From: a virus
UHGV virus genome: UHGV-0397187
Strand: one strand, 5' to 3'
Length of the DNA: 41,531 nucleotides
The notes beneath the pieces were generated by a model, which saw nothing but the letters and a program-made list of their open reading frames with translations, was not told the DNA's origin and ran no database searches. Positions 2,306-17,372 of the stretch are shown in pieces. Positions within the stretch are counted from its first letter, which is position 1, and the number at the start of each line of letters is the position of its first letter. The position numbers and the translations under genes are program-made.

Positions 2306-2494
2306 TCACGAGGACAGAAGTTTCTCGCAATTAAAATTTATCAGCTTTACTTTCTGCTCTCTGGACACGCCTGCTTCTTTTTTCCCTGAGAGCATTTTTT
2401 CGCATTCTGATTTCGTTAATTTAGATTTTGAATATCTTGTCCAGTTAGTAGGAGTGCCACCTTCTTTTTCAATAGTGGCAGTTATTTTATACAT
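2306..2494 (-). CDS. hypothetical small protein (position of Rac ydaC); start uncertain
   Basis: ORF 2306-2566 on minus strand; a later Met is chosen to limit overlap with the downstream lar-like gene. Confidence 0.35.
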   Translation of the reverse strand: MYKITATIEKEGGTPTNWTRYSKSKLTKSECEKMLSGKKEAGVSREQKVKLINFNCEKLLSS

Positions 2495-7012: not shown

Positions 7013-7407
7013 AATTATCTCCATTTTTACAAATGAACTTTGTTGATGCGGTGCCTGGTGCCTCCAGGTGACGTTAACCAGTTAACAATTAACGCCGGAT
7101 AATCCACCCATAACACTGATGCTTTTAACTGTGCCGCGTGCGCTTAGCCGCATTCACCGCATCACAAAATTCACTTTAAAAAGGGGCAGCAGGGCAGCCA
7201 CGGAGTAGAACTGATGCCGCCAAAGACTACACATAGCAATGTCGTTATTTACAACCGGAGGCGCACTCCCACCATTTAAATTTAACAGACAAGACCGACT
7301 CTTTATGAATACCGGAAATGCGCCTTCGTGTTGTGCGCCTGTCTTTTTACCACTTCAGGCTCGGTGGTATACTGGAGTTCTCACACAACCAGTAATAAGG
7401 TATTCCG

Positions 7408-13718: not shown

Positions 13719-14234
13719 ATGGCGTTAACACACCACGAACTCTGTCAGATTGCGTACAAGTTCCTTAAGCGCAACGGGTTCAAGGTTTGCTTTCATGACC
13801 GCTTTGTTGCTGTAACCAGTACCGGAGAACAGCCAGATGCTATGGGATTCAGAAATTCAGCATCATGCCTGATAGAGGCGAAGTGTTCTCGTGCTGACTT
13901 GTTGGCAGATAGAAAAAAGCGTTTCCGTAAAAATCCCTCACTTGGCATGGGCGACTGGCGATTCTTTATTAGTGAGCCGGAAATTATTTCAGTTGAGGAT
14001 TTACCTCCCGGCTGGGGATTACTTCACGTTGTTAACGGAAGAGTACGGAAAGTACATGGATGGCCCAGGGGTAATTGCTGTTGGGGTAATCCTGACGATA
14101 AGCCATTTACCGGGAATAAGCAGGTTGAATGCGATTACATGTTATCTGCATTAAGGCGCATGGAGCTAAGAGGACACCTTAATGAAATATATGACGGTGT
14201 AATTGTTAATAAGAAAGAAGGAAACGCAGCATGA
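13719..14234 (+). CDS. putative PD-(D/E)xK-type nuclease-like protein
   Basis: ATG at 13719 after aaaggagag RBS; GEQPDAMGF...LIEAKCSRADL gives a PD ... E-x-K arrangement; weak motif-level inference. Confidence 0.4.
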   Translation: MALTHHELCQIAYKFLKRNGFKVCFHDRFVAVTSTGEQPDAMGFRNSASCLIEAKCSRADLLADRKKRFRKNPSLGMGDWRFFISEPEIISVEDLPPGWGLLHVVNGRVRKVHGWPRGNCCWGNPDDKPFTGNKQVECDYMLSALRRMELRGHLNEIYDGVIVNKKEGNAA

Positions 14235-14608
14235 CCACTTTAACCGACAAAGAACTGATTAAAGAAATCAGAGAGCGAATCGGCAGCCTGGACGTCCGAG
14301 ACAATATTGAGCGTCGGGCTTATGAAATTGCTCTGGCATCACTGGAAGCAGAAGCGCCAAATTTGCCTGGTGGTTTCACCATTGAGGATGCGAAGGAGTT
14401 ACATGAAGACCTGGTACGCAGCCACATAAGCCAGGCTTTAAGTGGCGAGAAGATGAAAAAGAAAGATCGTGATGCTGATTTGCTCTGGATTCATGGCGTT
14501 ATAGTACAGGCAGCGTGGTTTGTGAAAGCCTCACTGGATGCGTTGCCTGAACCGCTGCGGGAGGAGAAGGGAGGAAGTCCAACTGAAGAAAGTGAAGCCG
14601 GACTGTAA
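14231..14608 (+). CDS. paralogue 3 of the three-member family
   Basis: MTTLTDKELIKEIRERIGSLDVRDNIERRAYEIALASLEAEAPNL. Confidence 0.6.
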   Translation: MTTLTDKELIKEIRERIGSLDVRDNIERRAYEIALASLEAEAPNLPGGFTIEDAKELHEDLVRSHISQALSGEKMKKKDRDADLLWIHGVIVQAAWFVKASLDALPEPLREEKGGSPTEESEAGL

Positions 14609-14946
14609 ATTACCGAGTAAGGCGATGGACTACCTGAAGCGAAACGGGCTGACAAGCGTGGAGGATATTTTACGATGACCTGGCCTGAGGCATTCACCAC
14701 GGTAGGAATTGCAATGGCGGTGGCGCTGGTGGTGTATTCGATTTGCCGCTGGGGATAAAAACGGTTTGCGGGAAAAGGAGAGTTAAGTAGAATTGCAGCG
14801 GGTGCTTGAGGCTATCTGCCTCGGGCATGAACACCAACGGCAGATAGATAAAAGCCCCACCCGACTATAAATCGAAGTGAGGCCCCTATATGCTCGTCAC
14901 ATATAGATTGCCTCTTACGGACCGAAAGGTCAAGGAGAAGCAGGCT

Positions 14947-15102
14947 ATGAAGCAGCAAAAGGCGATGTTAGTCGCCCTGATCGTCATCTGTTTAACCGTC
15001 ATAGTGACGGCACTGGTAACGAGGAAAGACCTCTGCGAGGTACGAATCCGAACCGGCCAGACGGAGGTCGCTGTCTTCACAGCTTACGAACCTGAGGAGT
15101 AA
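14947..15102 (+). CDS. hok: Hok/Gef-family type I toxin
   Basis: MKQQKAMLVALIVICLTVIVTALVTRKDLCEVRIRTGQTEVAVFTAYEPEE: hallmark Hok sequence; aaggag RBS; in-frame upstream extension from 14890. Confidence 0.9.
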   Translation: MKQQKAMLVALIVICLTVIVTALVTRKDLCEVRIRTGQTEVAVFTAYEPEE

Positions 15103-15171
15103 GAGACCCGGCGGGGGAGAAATCCCTCGCCACCTCTGATGTGTCAGGCATCCTCAACGCACCCGCACTTA

Positions 15172-15196
15172 ACCCGCTTCGGCGGGTTTTTTGTTG
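15172..15196 (+). terminator. intrinsic terminator after hok
   Basis: acccgc-ttcg-gcgggt followed by ttttttgtt. Confidence 0.75.
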
Positions 15197-15338
15197 CGCG
15201 CTGAATACGCAGGGTGAAAAATAACCATATATTTGATTATATACACAACAAAAAATAAAAGTCATTGCACCTGCACATTAAATAATCAAATATACGACGT
15301 GAAATAAATATTTTTCAGATTAATATTTTTGTCTCTAT

Positions 15339-15590
15339 GTGGATATAACCGTTTGTACTTATAAACCTGGAGGCATCGTGGAAAAAATAAAGAAACTATT
15401 TAGTAGCAAATATGCAGTCATACGTCGTGATGACCTGTCAGTTATAGTCGAAATGGATTACTTCCCTGAAACCAAAAAATCAATGATGTATCGTAATGGT
15501 CGAAAGGCAATTTTTTTACCGATGAGGGTAAGTGACATTATGGGAAATGATAAACTGCTGGATGAATTGCGAGTCAGAGCATCCTGTTAG
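15339..15590 (+). CDS. Rem-like small protein (Qin-type gene order hok-rem-DUF1367-Q)
   Basis: 83-aa ORF between hok and the DUF1367-like gene, same size and position as Qin rem; a GTG at 15377 with ggagg RBS is an alternative start. Confidence 0.45.
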   Translation: MDITVCTYKPGGIVEKIKKLFSSKYAVIRRDDLSVIVEMDYFPETKKSMMYRNGRKAIFLPMRVSDIMGNDKLLDELRVRASC

Positions 15591-16551: not shown

Positions 16552-17102
16552 TTTACCCAACAAATACAGGCAAAAGCGGGGAACACCTTCGTCTCACCAC
16601 GCTGGAAAGTGTCTGGATTCAGGGAAAACTGCGCATGTGGGGGCGCTGGTCGTATATTGGCGGCGGTAAGACGGGAAATATGTTTAACCAGTTGCTGACC
16701 TCTAAAAAGCTAACAAAAACGGCAATTAATGAGGCGCTCCGGAGGATGAAAAAAGCAGGTCTGGACAAACCTGAACTTGAGGCTTTTTTGCGGGATATGA
16801 TCAACGGCAAGCAAAAAAGCTGGCTGGTGCATTGTACTGATGCAGAGGCGTTATGCATTGATCGGGTGATTAGTGAAGTGCTGGCAGAACACCCAGGATT
16901 GATTTGTATCCTCCGGCAAAGATATGAAGGGCGGGGGATGAGTAAGCGCAAAATGGCTGAATTGCTGAATGATGCACACCCCGAGTGGTGTTTCCGGACG
17001 TGCTGCAGTCGGGTAGATGTATGGCTAAATCTTGCTGAATATATGCTCTATCTACCGATGCGTGATGCATTCTCTTCCGGGGATCTAAAAACCGTCTGTT
17101 GA
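16548..17102 (+). CDS. putative late-gene antiterminator (Q-like)
   Basis: 184-aa ORF whose stop overlaps the -35 of a strong promoter followed by a short-transcript terminator (PR'/tR' arrangement); lysis genes follow. Confidence 0.55.
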   Translation: MIYPTNTGKSGEHLRLTTLESVWIQGKLRMWGRWSYIGGGKTGNMFNQLLTSKKLTKTAINEALRRMKKAGLDKPELEAFLRDMINGKQKSWLVHCTDAEALCIDRVISEVLAEHPGLICILRQRYEGRGMSKRKMAELLNDAHPEWCFRTCCSRVDVWLNLAEYMLYLPMRDAFSSGDLKTVC

Positions 17103-17128
17103 CTCAATCTGTTATCCGGGGCTATATT
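17099..17128 (+). promoter_or_regulatory. late promoter PR'-like (sigma70)
   Basis: -35 ttgact (17099-17104), 18-bp spacer, -10 tatatt (17123-17128). Confidence 0.6.
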
Positions 17129-17189
17129 CCTCACGCGCCAGCAAAATCTGGCGTCGGGATTGGCGTCCCGGATAGAGACCGCGACAGAT

Positions 17190-17213
17190 ACACGCCGCGA
17201 GCGTGTTTTTTAT
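17190..17213 (+). terminator. tR'-like intrinsic terminator about 65 nt downstream of PR'
   Basis: acacgc-cgcga-gcgtgt followed by tttttatt. Confidence 0.6.
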
Positions 17214-17372
17214 TGTCGTATGCACGCGCACATCTGAATTATGGTGGGCTGTGTGGGGGCGGAGAGATCCGCGCCGGTCGGTTTCCCGGTTACGCCAACC
17301 CTGCACAGTTCACCACCAGATGATTGGCGTCGTCGGTGGTGAGTTATTAAGAAACCACCAGAGGGCGTCATT

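What the first reader, a model, noticed from the sequence alone, without database searches (positions are those of the whole stretch)
14610..15196. Hok-family type I toxin locus with in-frame upstream extension and small hydrophobic upstream ORFs
A typical Hok sequence with strong RBS and terminator sits in the nin-like region. The reading frame is open from 14890, a mok-like upstream start but in the same frame. Two short ORFs precede it: MDYLKRNGLTSVEDILR (14626-14679) and the hydrophobic 27-aa MTWPEAFTTVGIAMAVALVVYSICRWG (14676-14759). An antisense Sok-like RNA is expected but cannot be located by eye.
Basis: partly seen in the sequence, partly recalled or inferred. Interest (0 to 1): 0.5.

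Follow-up and report, generated by a model that had tools for sequence, protein, structure and literature searches.

The report
Intact prophage hok/mok/sok toxin–antitoxin cassette
This is an ordinary, apparently intact copy of the well-known hok/mok/sok RNA-controlled toxin–antitoxin cassette in an E. coli lambdoid prophage; the "in-frame extension" is the usual mok leader of this subfamily, and the two upstream small ORFs are not part of the cassette.

Summary
Window 14765-15196 holds a complete hok/mok/sok type I toxin-antitoxin cassette of the hokC(gef)/hokW/hokD subfamily. Hok (14947-15102) matches Pfam HOK_GEF at 1.7e-23. The mRNA leader (14800-14949) matches Rfam RF01794 at 104 bits.

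The 397-nt mRNA folds with its 5' end (tac) paired to a 3' box (fbi), z = -8.7. The in-frame ORF from 14890 is mok. It is also in frame in annotated K-12 mokC, in 933W mokW and in 64 of 74 distinct phage loci, so it is not a peculiarity.

I placed the missing Sok RNA by homology to annotated sokC and sokW. It lies on the minus strand at 14898->~14844, with -35 TTGACC, a 17-nt spacer and -10 CAATCT. Its expression was not tested.

The 17-aa ORF (true coordinates 14625-14678) is an out-of-frame relic of the C-terminus of an ea22-like gene. The 27-aa ORF (14675-14758) looks like a real, unannotated small membrane protein under purifying selection. It also occurs in phages without hok, so it is a neighbour and not a component.

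The closest phage homologue, hokW-sokW, has already been characterised experimentally. Verdict: already known, low interest. The only mildly new items are the unannotated 27-aa gene family and the recurrence of small hydrophobic ORFs just upstream of hok.

The parts
14765..14793 (+). Putative hok promoter. The -10 is TAGAAT at 14788-14793, 6 nt before the +1 at 14800. The -35 is weak: TTTGCG at 14765-14770, or TTGCGG at 14766-14771.
   Evidence: Read from the sequence. The position is fixed by the 5' end of the Rfam RF01794 match. The -10 is conserved in 933W and in nearly all of 53 leader variants. It is below the threshold of the consensus scan.
14800..15196 (+). Full-length hok (mok-hok) mRNA, 397 nt, from the conserved GGGUGCUUGAGG 5' end to the intrinsic terminator.
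   Evidence: Rfam match starts at 14800. Terminator at 15171-15188 plus T-run. MFE is -166.9 kcal/mol with z = -8.7 against shuffles. Homology among loci ends at the T-run.
14800..14811 (+). tac element, the 5'-terminal GGGUGCUUGAGG.
   Evidence: It pairs with 15152-15164 in the full-length MFE fold. It pairs with 14852-14858 (ucb) when the 5' domain is folded alone, and in the Rfam consensus structure. It is invariant in 72 of 74 loci.
14850..14858 (+). ucb / anti-SD box, AAAAGCCCC.
   Evidence: In the full-length fold 14854-14860 pairs with 14877-14883, which contains the mok SD. In the 5'-domain fold and in the Rfam consensus it pairs with tac instead.
14844..14898 (-). Predicted Sok antisense RNA, about 55 nt: GACGAGCAUAUAGGGGCCUCACUUCGAUUUAUAGUCGGGUGGGGCUUUUAUCUAU. 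It has a 9-nt free 5' tail, a long hairpin and a U-rich tail. It covers ucb, the mok SD and the mok AUG.
   Evidence: The ends were transferred from annotated K-12 sokC (16952-17010) and 933W sokW through alignment. The fold architecture matches sokC and sokW, z = -4.7. Expression was not tested.
14905..14933 (-). Predicted sok promoter: -35 TTGACC (14933..14928), 17-nt spacer, -10 CAATCT (14910..14905), with the TSS 7 nt downstream at 14898.
   Evidence: The architecture is the same as upstream of annotated sokC (TTGACC-17-CACTCT) and sokW (TTGCCT-17-TAACCT). The consensus scan does not report it, but it also misses the sokC and sokW promoters.
14879..14882 (+). mok Shine-Dalgarno sequence GAGG, 7 nt before the mok ATG.
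   Evidence: Read from the sequence. It is sequestered by ucb in the full-length fold.
14890..15102 (+). mok reading frame, 70 aa. It is in frame with hok, so its product is an N-terminally extended Hok.
   Evidence: ORF list. Homologous to annotated mokC and mokW, which are both in frame. All 72 complete loci keep a mok ORF that reaches the hok start codon.
14932..14937 (+). hok Shine-Dalgarno sequence AAGGAG.
   Evidence: Read from the sequence. It is partly paired in the full-length fold, 14935-14938 with 14913-14916.
14947..15102 (+). hok toxin gene, 51 aa: MKQQKAMLVALIVICLTVIVTALVTRKDLCEVRIRTGQTEVAVFTAYEPEE.
   Evidence: Pfam HOK_GEF 1.7e-23. PHROG 251 1.9e-32. An identical protein is annotated as HokD (WP_000813269.1) in RefSeq.
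15102..15137 (+). 3' UTR stem-loop, with core 15110-15118 paired to 15123-15131. It corresponds to the hairpin that ends the processed, active mRNA in R1.
   Evidence: Fold helices. The role is inferred from the R1 model (PMC9841398).
15152..15164 (+). fbi element, CCUCAA(C)GCACCC, complementary to tac.
   Evidence: 12 bp with one bulge in the MFE fold. Across loci the bulged base varies while paired bases stay fixed or change to G-U.
15171..15196 (+). Intrinsic terminator of hok mRNA, which is also the right-hand edge of the cassette.
   Evidence: Terminator scan. Homology among 74 loci breaks immediately after the T-run.
14675..14758 (+). NOT part of the cassette. Conserved 27-aa small membrane-protein ORF (MTWPEAFTTVGIAMAVALVVYSICRWG), with SD GGAGG at 14660-14664.
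   Evidence: Length, start and stop are conserved in 16 DNA variants. pN/pS is 0-0.47 with pS up to 0.78. It is present without hok in BP-4795, TH18 and PhiR12_4. There is no Pfam or PHROG family, and only a sub-threshold NCBIfam hit (KdpF, E = 0.024, below cut-off).
14578..14678 (+). NOT part of the cassette. Out-of-frame relic of the C-terminal tail of an ea22-like (phrog_660) gene.
   Evidence: PHROG 660 positions 161-193 of 193, E = 2.2e-14. The same tail, KPDCKLP..AM.YL.RNGL.SVEDILR, ends full-length 101-171-aa proteins in other loci. The mosaic joint with the 125-aa ORF is described.

Best explanation
Window 14765-15196 is a complete hok/mok/sok type I toxin-antitoxin cassette of the hokC(gef)/hokW/hokD subfamily. 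It sits in the early-right (nin-like) operon of an E. coli lambdoid prophage. The mechanism below is shown for homologues and inferred here.

1. **Inert full-length mRNA.** A weak constitutive promoter makes a stable 397-nt mRNA. Its 5' end (tac) pairs with a 3' box (fbi). The mok SD is held by an upstream anti-SD box (ucb), and the mok AUG and hok SD lie in local helices. The full-length RNA is therefore neither translated nor bound by Sok.
2. **Activation.** Slow 3' trimming removes fbi. tac then pairs with ucb, and the mok translation-initiation region opens.
3. **Silencing by Sok.** A short unstable antisense RNA (~55 nt, minus strand 14898->14844) is made from a promoter lying inside the mok leader. 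It pairs over the ucb, mok SD and mok AUG region, blocks mok translation and marks the duplex for RNase III.
4. **Toxin production.** When Sok supply stops, ribosomes translate mok. Here mok is in frame, so they make a 70-aa extended Hok. This translation also opens the hok start, giving the 51-aa membrane toxin. Sok supply could stop on loss of the element or on prophage induction.

The likely biological roles are prophage maintenance or addiction, help with lysis after induction, and/or exclusion of other phages.
For: **Shown here**
- Pfam HOK_GEF at 1.7e-23 and PHROG 251 'MokW-like host killing' at 1.9e-32.
- The Rfam RF01794 covariance model matches the full leader at 103.9 bits against a gathering score of 59.
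- The full-length MFE fold closes the molecule by 12 bp between 14800-14811 and 15152-15164, z = -8.7.
- In that fold, ucb pairs with the mok SD. The 5' domain folded alone pairs tac with ucb, as in the Rfam consensus.
- The cassette is 89% identical over 461 nt to 933W mokW/hokW/sokW. It is collinear with K-12 mokC/hokC/sokC, including the sok promoter architecture and the Sok ends.
- The predicted Sok folds like the annotated sokC and sokW.
- All 72 complete loci out of 74 keep a mok ORF reaching the hok start. 64 are in frame and use two alternative peptide sequences related by compensating +1/-1 indels. The other 8 have a 19-codon mok ending in ATGA on the hok start.
- The fbi bulge position varies while the paired positions do not.

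**From the literature**
- hokW is toxic, sokW acts from its own promoter, and the system aids Sp5 release after mitomycin C (PMC8621323).
- The R1 folding and translation-coupling model, including the finding that mok must be translated only up to the hok start (PMC9841398).
- mokC/sokC RNase III dsRNA in K-12 (PMC7373196).
- hok enrichment in prophages (bioRxiv 10.1101/2025.08.07.668861).
Against: - No expression or toxicity data exist for this copy.
- The inferred sok -10 (CAATCT) and hok -35 are poor consensus matches, and the generic promoter scan did not report them. The same scan also misses the annotated sokC promoter and the experimentally mutated sokW promoter.
- The MFE fold of an arbitrarily 3'-truncated mRNA (14800-15155) did not produce the textbook open form. 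The 5' end found another 3' partner. The true processing site is unknown.
- Chromosomal hokA, hokB and hokC loci were reported not to mediate post-segregational killing, as cited in the 2025 preprint. Sequence intactness therefore does not prove activity.
Confidence: 0.9

Rival explanations
1. The locus is intact in sequence but functionally silent. It would be a domesticated or decaying chromosomal hok copy, like the K-12 hok loci, in which Sok or hok is not expressed or Hok is never released.
For: - Both promoters are weak by consensus.
- Literature cited in bioRxiv 10.1101/2025.08.07.668861 reports that chromosomal hokA, hokB and hokC loci did not give post-segregational killing.
- K-12 hokC and hokD are visibly disrupted, by IS186 downstream and by loss of the leader respectively.
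Against: - Unlike K-12 hokC and hokD, this copy keeps every element: promoter, tac, ucb, mok SD and ATG, hok SD and ATG, sok promoter and hairpin, 3' stem-loop, fbi and terminator.
- The non-coding tac and fbi boxes are invariant across 70 or more distinct loci.
- The mok frame is preserved through compensating indels. This argues for ongoing selection.
- The phage homologue hokW-sokW is functional (PMC8621323).
Confidence: 0.08
2. The in-frame extension marks a distinct variant in which the 70-aa Mok-Hok fusion, and not the 51-aa Hok, is the relevant toxin or a second isoform with its own function.
For: - Because mok is in frame, any ribosome starting at 14890 must make the 70-aa protein, which contains the whole Hok domain.
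- In-frame mok is the majority state, 64 of 74 loci.
- The extension is basic, so by inference it would be compatible with a cytoplasmic N-terminus.
Against: - The extension's amino-acid sequence is not conserved. Two unrelated peptides, RLASYVPKGKEKQA and RLPLTDRKVKEKQA, arise from frame-restoring indels.
- 8 loci end mok at the hok ATG, and R1 mok is out of frame by the numbering in PMC9841398. Translation through the region appears to be what is conserved, not the product.
- In R1, mok translation past the hok start is dispensable (PMC9841398).
Confidence: 0.15
3. The upstream small ORFs (17 aa and 27 aa) are components of the hok system, for example extra leader peptides or a membrane partner or immunity peptide.
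For: - The 27-aa ORF ends 41 nt before the hok +1 here and in 933W.
- In four of the larger upstream-context classes (63 of 80 loci, not de-duplicated), some small hydrophobic ORF ends 40-90 nt upstream of the hok start site.
Against: - Both ORFs lie upstream of the hok transcription start, outside the RNA modelled by Rfam.
- The 17-aa ORF is an out-of-frame relic of an ea22-like C-terminus.
- The 27-aa ORF occurs in BP-4795, TH18 and PhiR12_4 with no hok within 1.5 kb.
- Many hok loci lack the 27-aa ORF.
- The upstream ORF families are unrelated to each other, and hydrophobic short ORFs also turn up in wrong frames.
Confidence: 0.04

Closest known systems
hokW/mokW/sokW of Stx phage 933W and Sakai prophage Sp5 (AF125520; Takada et al. 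2021, PMC8621323)
   Same: - It is phage-borne.
- It is 89% identical over the cassette.
- It has the same hok promoter -10, tac, ucb, fbi and 3' stem-loop.
- Its 70-aa mok is in frame.
- Hok differs at 5 residues.
- The same 27-aa ORF lies immediately upstream.
   Different: - The window has a 21-nt shorter Sok hairpin.
- The mok leader peptide differs (RLPLTDRKVKEKQA against RLASYVPKGKEKQA) because of paired +1/-1 indels.
- The sok promoter hexamers differ: TTGACC/CAATCT against TTGCCT/TAACCT.
- The window has a proper intrinsic terminator right after fbi.
- The window cassette is in the nin-like early-right region, whereas hokW lies near the right end of the 933W record. By my reading that places it beside the DUF551/ea22-type early-left genes, but this was not checked.
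hokC (gef)/mokC/sokC of E. coli K-12 (b4412, b0018, b4413)
   Same: - mok is in frame (69 aa), with a near-identical leader peptide (...PLTDRKVKEK..).
- The sok promoter architecture is the same: TTGACC, 17 nt, then CA(A/C)TCT.
- The Sok start position and fold are the same.
   Different: - In K-12 hokC, IS186 is inserted just downstream, so fbi and the terminator are missing. The window copy is complete.
- The Hok proteins differ at several residues.
- hokC is chromosomal and not in a prophage.
hokD (relF) of the Qin cryptic prophage, E. coli K-12
   Same: - The Hok protein is nearly identical (one change, I9V), which is why RefSeq names this gene hokD.
- The location is the same kind: a lambdoid prophage, upstream of DUF1367 and Q-like genes.
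   Different: K-12 hokD has lost everything upstream of the hok SD (tac, ucb, mok, sok) to the relBE insertion. It also lacks the last part of the 3' UTR. The window copy retains all of these.
hok/mok/sok of plasmid R1 (parB)
   Same: - The overall design and lengths match: an mRNA of roughly the same length (397 nt here), mok beginning 57-58 nt before hok, tac/fbi end-pairing, and ucb against the mok SD.
- Sok is made from a promoter inside the mok leader (PMC9841398).
   Different: - About 44% Hok identity (PMC8621323).
- R1 mok is +1 out of frame by the numbering in PMC9841398, although an IncFII plasmid variant is in frame.
- The tac/fbi sequences differ (GGCGCUU/AAGCGCC) with matching changes on both sides.
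- The role in R1 is plasmid addiction.

Membership tests
hok/mok/sok type I toxin-antitoxin (Hok/Gef family) | A Hok toxin ORF of about 50 aa with an N-terminal transmembrane helix and a conserved periplasmic part. | tested here: met
   Pfam HOK_GEF 82.3 bits, E = 1.7e-23, covering profile positions 1-42 of 42. PHROG 251. The NCBIfam Hok models hit at 3.8e-13 but below their curated cut-offs, which are tuned to other subfamilies.
hok/mok/sok type I toxin-antitoxin (Hok/Gef family) | An overlapping leader ORF (mok) with its own SD, starting about 57 nt upstream and reaching at least the hok start. | tested here: met
   ATG at 14890 with GAGG 7 nt upstream. It is in frame and gives 70 aa. It is homologous to annotated mokC and mokW. 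The ORF is retained in 72 of 72 complete loci.
hok/mok/sok type I toxin-antitoxin (Hok/Gef family) | A conserved hok mRNA leader sequence and structure. | tested here: met
   Rfam RF01794 covers model positions 1-157 in full, at 103.9 bits against a gathering score of 59.
hok/mok/sok type I toxin-antitoxin (Hok/Gef family) | Long-range 5'-3' end pairing (tac/fbi) that closes the full-length mRNA. | tested here: met
   12 bp between 14800-14811 and 15152-15164 in the MFE and centroid folds, z = -8.7. Conservation pattern. The R1-type plasmid locus shows the equivalent pairing with different bases.
hok/mok/sok type I toxin-antitoxin (Hok/Gef family) | Alternative pairing of ucb with either the mok SD (closed form) or tac (open form). 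| tested here: met
   The closed form appears in the full-length fold. The tac/ucb stem appears in the 5'-domain fold and in the Rfam consensus. A fold of one arbitrary 3'-truncated RNA did not switch, so the processing-triggered switch itself is inferred.
hok/mok/sok type I toxin-antitoxin (Hok/Gef family) | A cis-encoded antisense Sok RNA with its promoter inside the mok leader and a terminator hairpin, covering the mok translation-initiation region. | tested here: inconclusive
   The sequence elements are present and collinear with annotated sokC and sokW (TTGACC-17-CAATCT; hairpin plus U-run). The generic promoter scan is negative both here and on the known sokC and sokW promoters. Transcription is not testable with these tools.
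hok/mok/sok type I toxin-antitoxin (Hok/Gef family) | Hok is toxic, and Sok neutralises it in cis or in trans. | not testable with these tools
   Shown for the homologue hokW-sokW (PMC8621323). RelF/HokD toxicity rests on prior literature.

The most novel reading that the evidence does not exclude
The 27-aa ORF (14675-14758) would belong to an unannotated, widely spread family of lambdoid-phage small membrane proteins with the pattern M-x-WP-[ED]-A ... YS-x-[CF]-RWG.

Such small hydrophobic proteins recur directly upstream of hok promoters. At least three unrelated families appear in four of the larger upstream-context classes, covering 63 of 80 loci examined. In the novel reading this is because they act together with or against Hok at the membrane, or because they provide the read-through entry by which early-operon transcription switches hok on at induction.

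I rate the gene being real at about 0.8. The probability given here is for a functional link to hok.
Probability: 0.05. Interest if true: 0.45.

Novelty: already known. Interest (0 to 1): 0.1.

Why it matters
It matters little for discovery. hok/mok/sok is the textbook type I toxin-antitoxin system. Prophage copies are known to be common, and the nearest phage homologue has been studied at the bench.

The practical value is in annotation.
- RefSeq labels only "hokD" here. The full cassette can now be annotated: mok, Sok RNA, tac/fbi and both promoters.
- The locus is a complete counterpart of the truncated K-12 hokD.
- The population data give a clean natural experiment. They show that selection keeps mok translation running up to the hok start whatever the frame or peptide sequence.

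The unannotated 27-aa membrane-protein gene is a small addition to the list of overlooked phage micro-proteins.

Tried and rejected
- **Consensus promoter scan.** The scan over 14400-15500 found no minus-strand promoter in 14800-14950 and no hok promoter. I do not count this as evidence, because the same scan misses the annotated sokC promoter and the experimentally mutated sokW promoter.
- **Truncated-mRNA fold.** Folding 14800-15155 to see the open form gave a different 5'-3' pairing. The real processing site is unknown, so I drew no conclusion.
- **tac/fbi covariation within the subfamily.** Both boxes are essentially invariant, so only conservation and the bulge pattern could be used. Cross-family comparison with an R1-type plasmid locus supplied the compensatory picture.
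- **Database searches with the 27-aa peptide.** Pfam and PHROGs gave no match, and NCBIfam gave only a sub-threshold KdpF hit (E = 0.024, below cut-off). tblastn and blastn against phages and E. coli genomes worked instead.
- **A single frameshifted gene.** I considered that the 125-aa ORF plus the 17-aa ORF are one frameshifted gene. I rejected this in favour of a mosaic joint. The C-terminal domain ending at 14608 is shared with a 231-aa RefSeq protein that ends at the same stop. Tail homology to phrog_660 begins only around 14580, in another frame.
- **A novel in-frame mok.** Rejected.
- **Literature search for 'orf69 gef'.** It returned nothing relevant.
Full report
**What is in the sequence.**

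Window 14947-15102 (+) encodes a 51-aa protein, MKQQKAMLVALIVICLTVIVTALVTRKDLCEVRIRTGQTEVAVFTAYEPEE. It matches Pfam HOK_GEF over the whole profile at E = 1.7e-23 and PHROG 251 "MokW-like host killing" at 1.9e-32.

An AAGGAG Shine-Dalgarno sequence lies 9 nt upstream. An intrinsic terminator (stem 15171-15188 plus T-run) lies downstream. The frame is open and in phase from an ATG at 14890, giving 70 aa.

Rfam's RF01794 is named "sok" but models the sense-strand hok leader. It matches 14800-14949 end to end at 103.9 bits against a gathering score of 59.

**Context.**

The window is an E. coli lambdoid prophage. Identical or near-identical DNA is found in E. coli chromosomes, where RefSeq annotates only "hokD" at this spot.

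The cassette lies on the same strand as the surrounding early-right genes. These run from replication genes (ydaV-type) and several DUF genes, through hok, to DUF1367, DUF1364, DUF1133 (Q-like), and then holin and lysozyme. "nin-like region" is a fair description.

4737 of 5426 complete E. coli genomes have a match to the 601-nt query. A recent survey reports hok enrichment in prophages (bioRxiv 10.1101/2025.08.07.668861).

**The in-frame extension is mok, and in-frame is the norm here.**

- Phage 933W carries annotated mokW (213 nt), hokW (156 nt, same stop) and sokW.
- K-12 carries annotated mokC (210 nt), hokC (153 nt, same stop) and sokC.
- In both cases the start-to-start difference is 57 nt, so mok is in frame.

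I collected 80 phage loci encoding close Hok relatives, which gave 74 distinct sequences.

| Class | Loci | mok arrangement |
|---|---|---|
| In frame | 64 | mok ATG 57 nt upstream of hok |
| ATGA-coupled | 8 | 19-codon mok whose TGA overlaps the hok ATG |
| Truncated | 2 | K-12 hokD type, no leader |

The in-frame loci use two unrelated leader peptides. One is ...RLASYVPKGKEKQA. The other, found in the window and in hokC, is ...RLPLTDRKVKEKQA. They are related by a +1 and a -1 indel 23 nt apart, which together restore the frame.

An IncFII plasmid locus whose Hok is identical to my remembered R1 Hok sequence is also in frame. The R1 numbering in PMC9841398 places the mok AUG at 116-118 and the hok AUG at 174-176. 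That is 58 nt, so R1 mok is out of frame.

What is conserved is translation from the mok start up to the hok start, not the frame or the peptide. This matches the R1 mutational result that mok must be translated only as far as the hok initiation region (PMC9841398).

**RNA architecture.**

The 397-nt RNA 14800-15196 has an MFE of -166.9 kcal/mol, z = -8.7 against shuffles. In that fold:
- the 5' GGGUGCUUGAGG (14800-14811) pairs with CCUCAA(C)GCACCC (15152-15164), 12 bp with one bulge;
- the mok SD region (14877-14883) pairs with 14854-14860;
- the mok AUG sits in a 7-bp hairpin (14886-14892 with 14900-14906);
- the hok SD is partly paired.

Folded alone, the 5' domain pairs GGG-UGCUU with AAGC-CCC (14852-14858). 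This is the tac/ucb stem of the Rfam consensus.

These are the closed and open conformers of the R1 model (PMC9841398). Across loci tac is invariant. In fbi the bulged base varies while paired bases stay constant or give G-U. A strong 3' stem-loop (core 15110-15118 with 15123-15131) precedes fbi. An arbitrary 3'-truncated RNA did not refold to the open form in the MFE prediction. The processing-triggered switch is therefore inferred, not shown.

**Locating Sok.**

Aligning the window with K-12 hokC and 933W hokW and transferring the annotated sokC (16952-17010) and sokW ends gives a minus-strand RNA from 14898 to about 14844. This RNA is 55 nt long.

The promoter upstream is TTGACC (14933..14928), a 17-nt spacer, then CAATCT (14910..14905), 6 nt before the start.
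- sokC has TTGACC-17-CACTCT.
- sokW has TTGCCT-17-TAACCT.

All three RNAs fold alike, with a 9-14-nt free 5' tail, a long hairpin and a U-rich tail, z about -4.5. The window's hairpin is 21 nt shorter than sokW's. The RNA covers ucb, the mok SD and the mok AUG.

The generic promoter scan reports nothing there. It equally misses the sokC promoter and the sokW promoter. The sokW promoter was validated by mutation (PMC8621323). sokC/mokC duplexes are seen in K-12 (PMC7373196). Sok expression from this copy remains untested.

**Integrity.**

K-12 hokC has IS186 in place of fbi and the terminator. K-12 hokD has lost the whole leader. This copy has every element. I therefore rate "intact hok/mok/sok cassette" at 0.9 and "silent or decaying" at about 0.08.

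Functional expectations come from hokW-sokW. HokW is toxic and goes to the inner membrane. sokW counteracts it, partly through RNase III and Hfq. After mitomycin C, sokW disappears, HokW appears in a RecA-dependent way, and phage release doubles (PMC8621323).

The cassette here is co-oriented with the early operon, and no terminator lies between 14608 and 14800. Read-through from the induced early promoter could therefore both supply hok-containing transcripts and interfere with the convergent sok promoter. This is my inference and is untested.

**The upstream ORFs.**

*The 17-aa ORF.* It is the end of a 46-aa open frame (14538-14678). Residues 14-46 of that frame match the last 33 positions of PHROG 660 at E = 2.2e-14. 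The preceding 125-aa ORF (14231-14608) matches the N-terminus of the same and related ea22-like PHROGs.

In other loci the same tail (..KPDCKLP.KAM.YL.RNGL.SVEDILR*) ends intact 101-171-aa proteins. The 125-aa ORF's own C-terminal domain is shared with a 231-aa RefSeq protein that stops at the same place. So 14578-14678 is a recombination relic left out of frame, not a gene.

*The 27-aa ORF (MTWPEAFTTVGIAMAVALVVYSICRWG).* It looks real, for these reasons:
- 16 DNA variants keep the length, the start (usually ATGA-overlapping whichever gene precedes it) and the stop;
- a GGAGG precedes it;
- pN/pS against the window copy is 0-0.47, with pS up to 0.78;
- it is found in 90 phage records and in 1613 of 5426 E. 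coli genomes;
- no gene call for it was found in the four annotated regions I inspected: 933W, BP-4795, TH18 and PhiR12_4.

It occurs without hok in BP-4795, TH18 and PhiR12_4, and many hok loci lack it. It is therefore a neighbour and not a component.

Other hok loci carry different small hydrophobic ORFs just upstream. I record this as unexplained, because wrong-frame hydrophobic ORFs also appear in the same scan.

**Comparison and verdict.**

The locus works like the hok/mok/sok family and meets every sequence-testable membership criterion. Sok transcription and toxicity could not be tested.

- It is closest to hokW-sokW in DNA.
- It is closest to mokC/sokC in leader peptide and sok promoter.
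- It is closest to HokD in protein, with one substitution.

It is best described as the complete form of the cassette whose truncated remnant is K-12 hokD. Nothing about it lies outside what is already described, so I rate novelty as already known and interest at about 0.1.

Noticed in passing
window 14675-14758 (+), SD at 14660-14664: This is a conserved 27-aa small membrane-protein ORF with the pattern M-x-WP-[ED]-A...YS-x-[CF]-RWG. It is under purifying selection (pN/pS 0-0.47). It is present in 1613 of 5426 E. coli genomes and in 90 phage records. No gene call for it was found in the annotated regions inspected, and it has no Pfam or PHROG family. It usually overlaps the stop of the preceding ea22, DUF551 or EaA-type gene by ATGA.
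   Followed up: partly
L004 1200-1289; L020 about 100-230 nt upstream of the hok +1; L012 about 90-310 nt upstream of the hok +1: Other hok loci carry unrelated small hydrophobic ORFs directly upstream of the hok promoter. Examples are (M)LVLKCALAIAAVMAIYCLAVVLMDRLSD, MSDDISLAMEGALAVVAVVGVYCLVVFLMDRLGN, and a 2-TM ORF of about 60 aa ending FLGVFMAVMCIEYWR. Whether this recurrence means anything was not established.
   Followed up: partly
window 14231-14678: There is a mosaic joint here. The 125-aa ORF has an ea22-like N-terminus and a different C-terminal domain ending at 14608. It is followed by an out-of-frame relic (~14578-14678) of a phrog_660 C-terminal tail. The window and the otherwise identical strain PEC148 diverge upstream of 14362.
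   Followed up: yes
window 15085-15088: Hok Tyr47 is encoded by TAC followed by G. [quoted passage not shown] Whether it is edited here is unknown.
   Followed up: no
L088 (IncFII plasmid NZ_CP128973.1) 343-559: A plasmid hok locus whose Hok protein is identical to my remembered R1 Hok sequence has mok in frame (57 nt, 71 aa). The published R1 numbering implies 58 nt, which is out of frame. The mok frame therefore flips even among near-identical plasmid loci.
   Followed up: partly
L012, L022, L031, L034, L048, L053, L063, L067 (56 nt upstream of the hok ATG): These are natural hok variants in which mok is a 19-codon ORF. Its TGA stop overlaps the hok ATG (ATGA), which is a termination-reinitiation style of coupling.
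   Followed up: yes
window 2310-2488 (+): Rfam RalA (antitoxin RNA of the RalR/RalA type I system of Rac-like prophages) matches at 219 bits over the full model. This is a second RNA-antitoxin system in the same prophage.
   Followed up: no
window 7184-7235 (-): Rfam DicF sRNA matches at 55 bits over the full model.
   Followed up: no
window 17122-17320 (+): Rfam isrK (78 bits), C4 antisense RNA (67 bits) and the c4-a1b1 target element (53 bits) lie in tandem just upstream of an ORF6N-domain gene. This is a P1/P7-type antirepressor control module downstream of the Q-like gene.
   Followed up: no
window 15197-15340: A very AT-rich spacer follows the hok terminator. It has two promoter-like sites on the minus strand (15265-15236 and 15318-15289). 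An 83-aa ORF (15339-15590, PHROG 1813, unknown function) comes next. Homology among hok loci breaks exactly at the terminator, so the hok cassette behaves as an insertable module.
   Followed up: no
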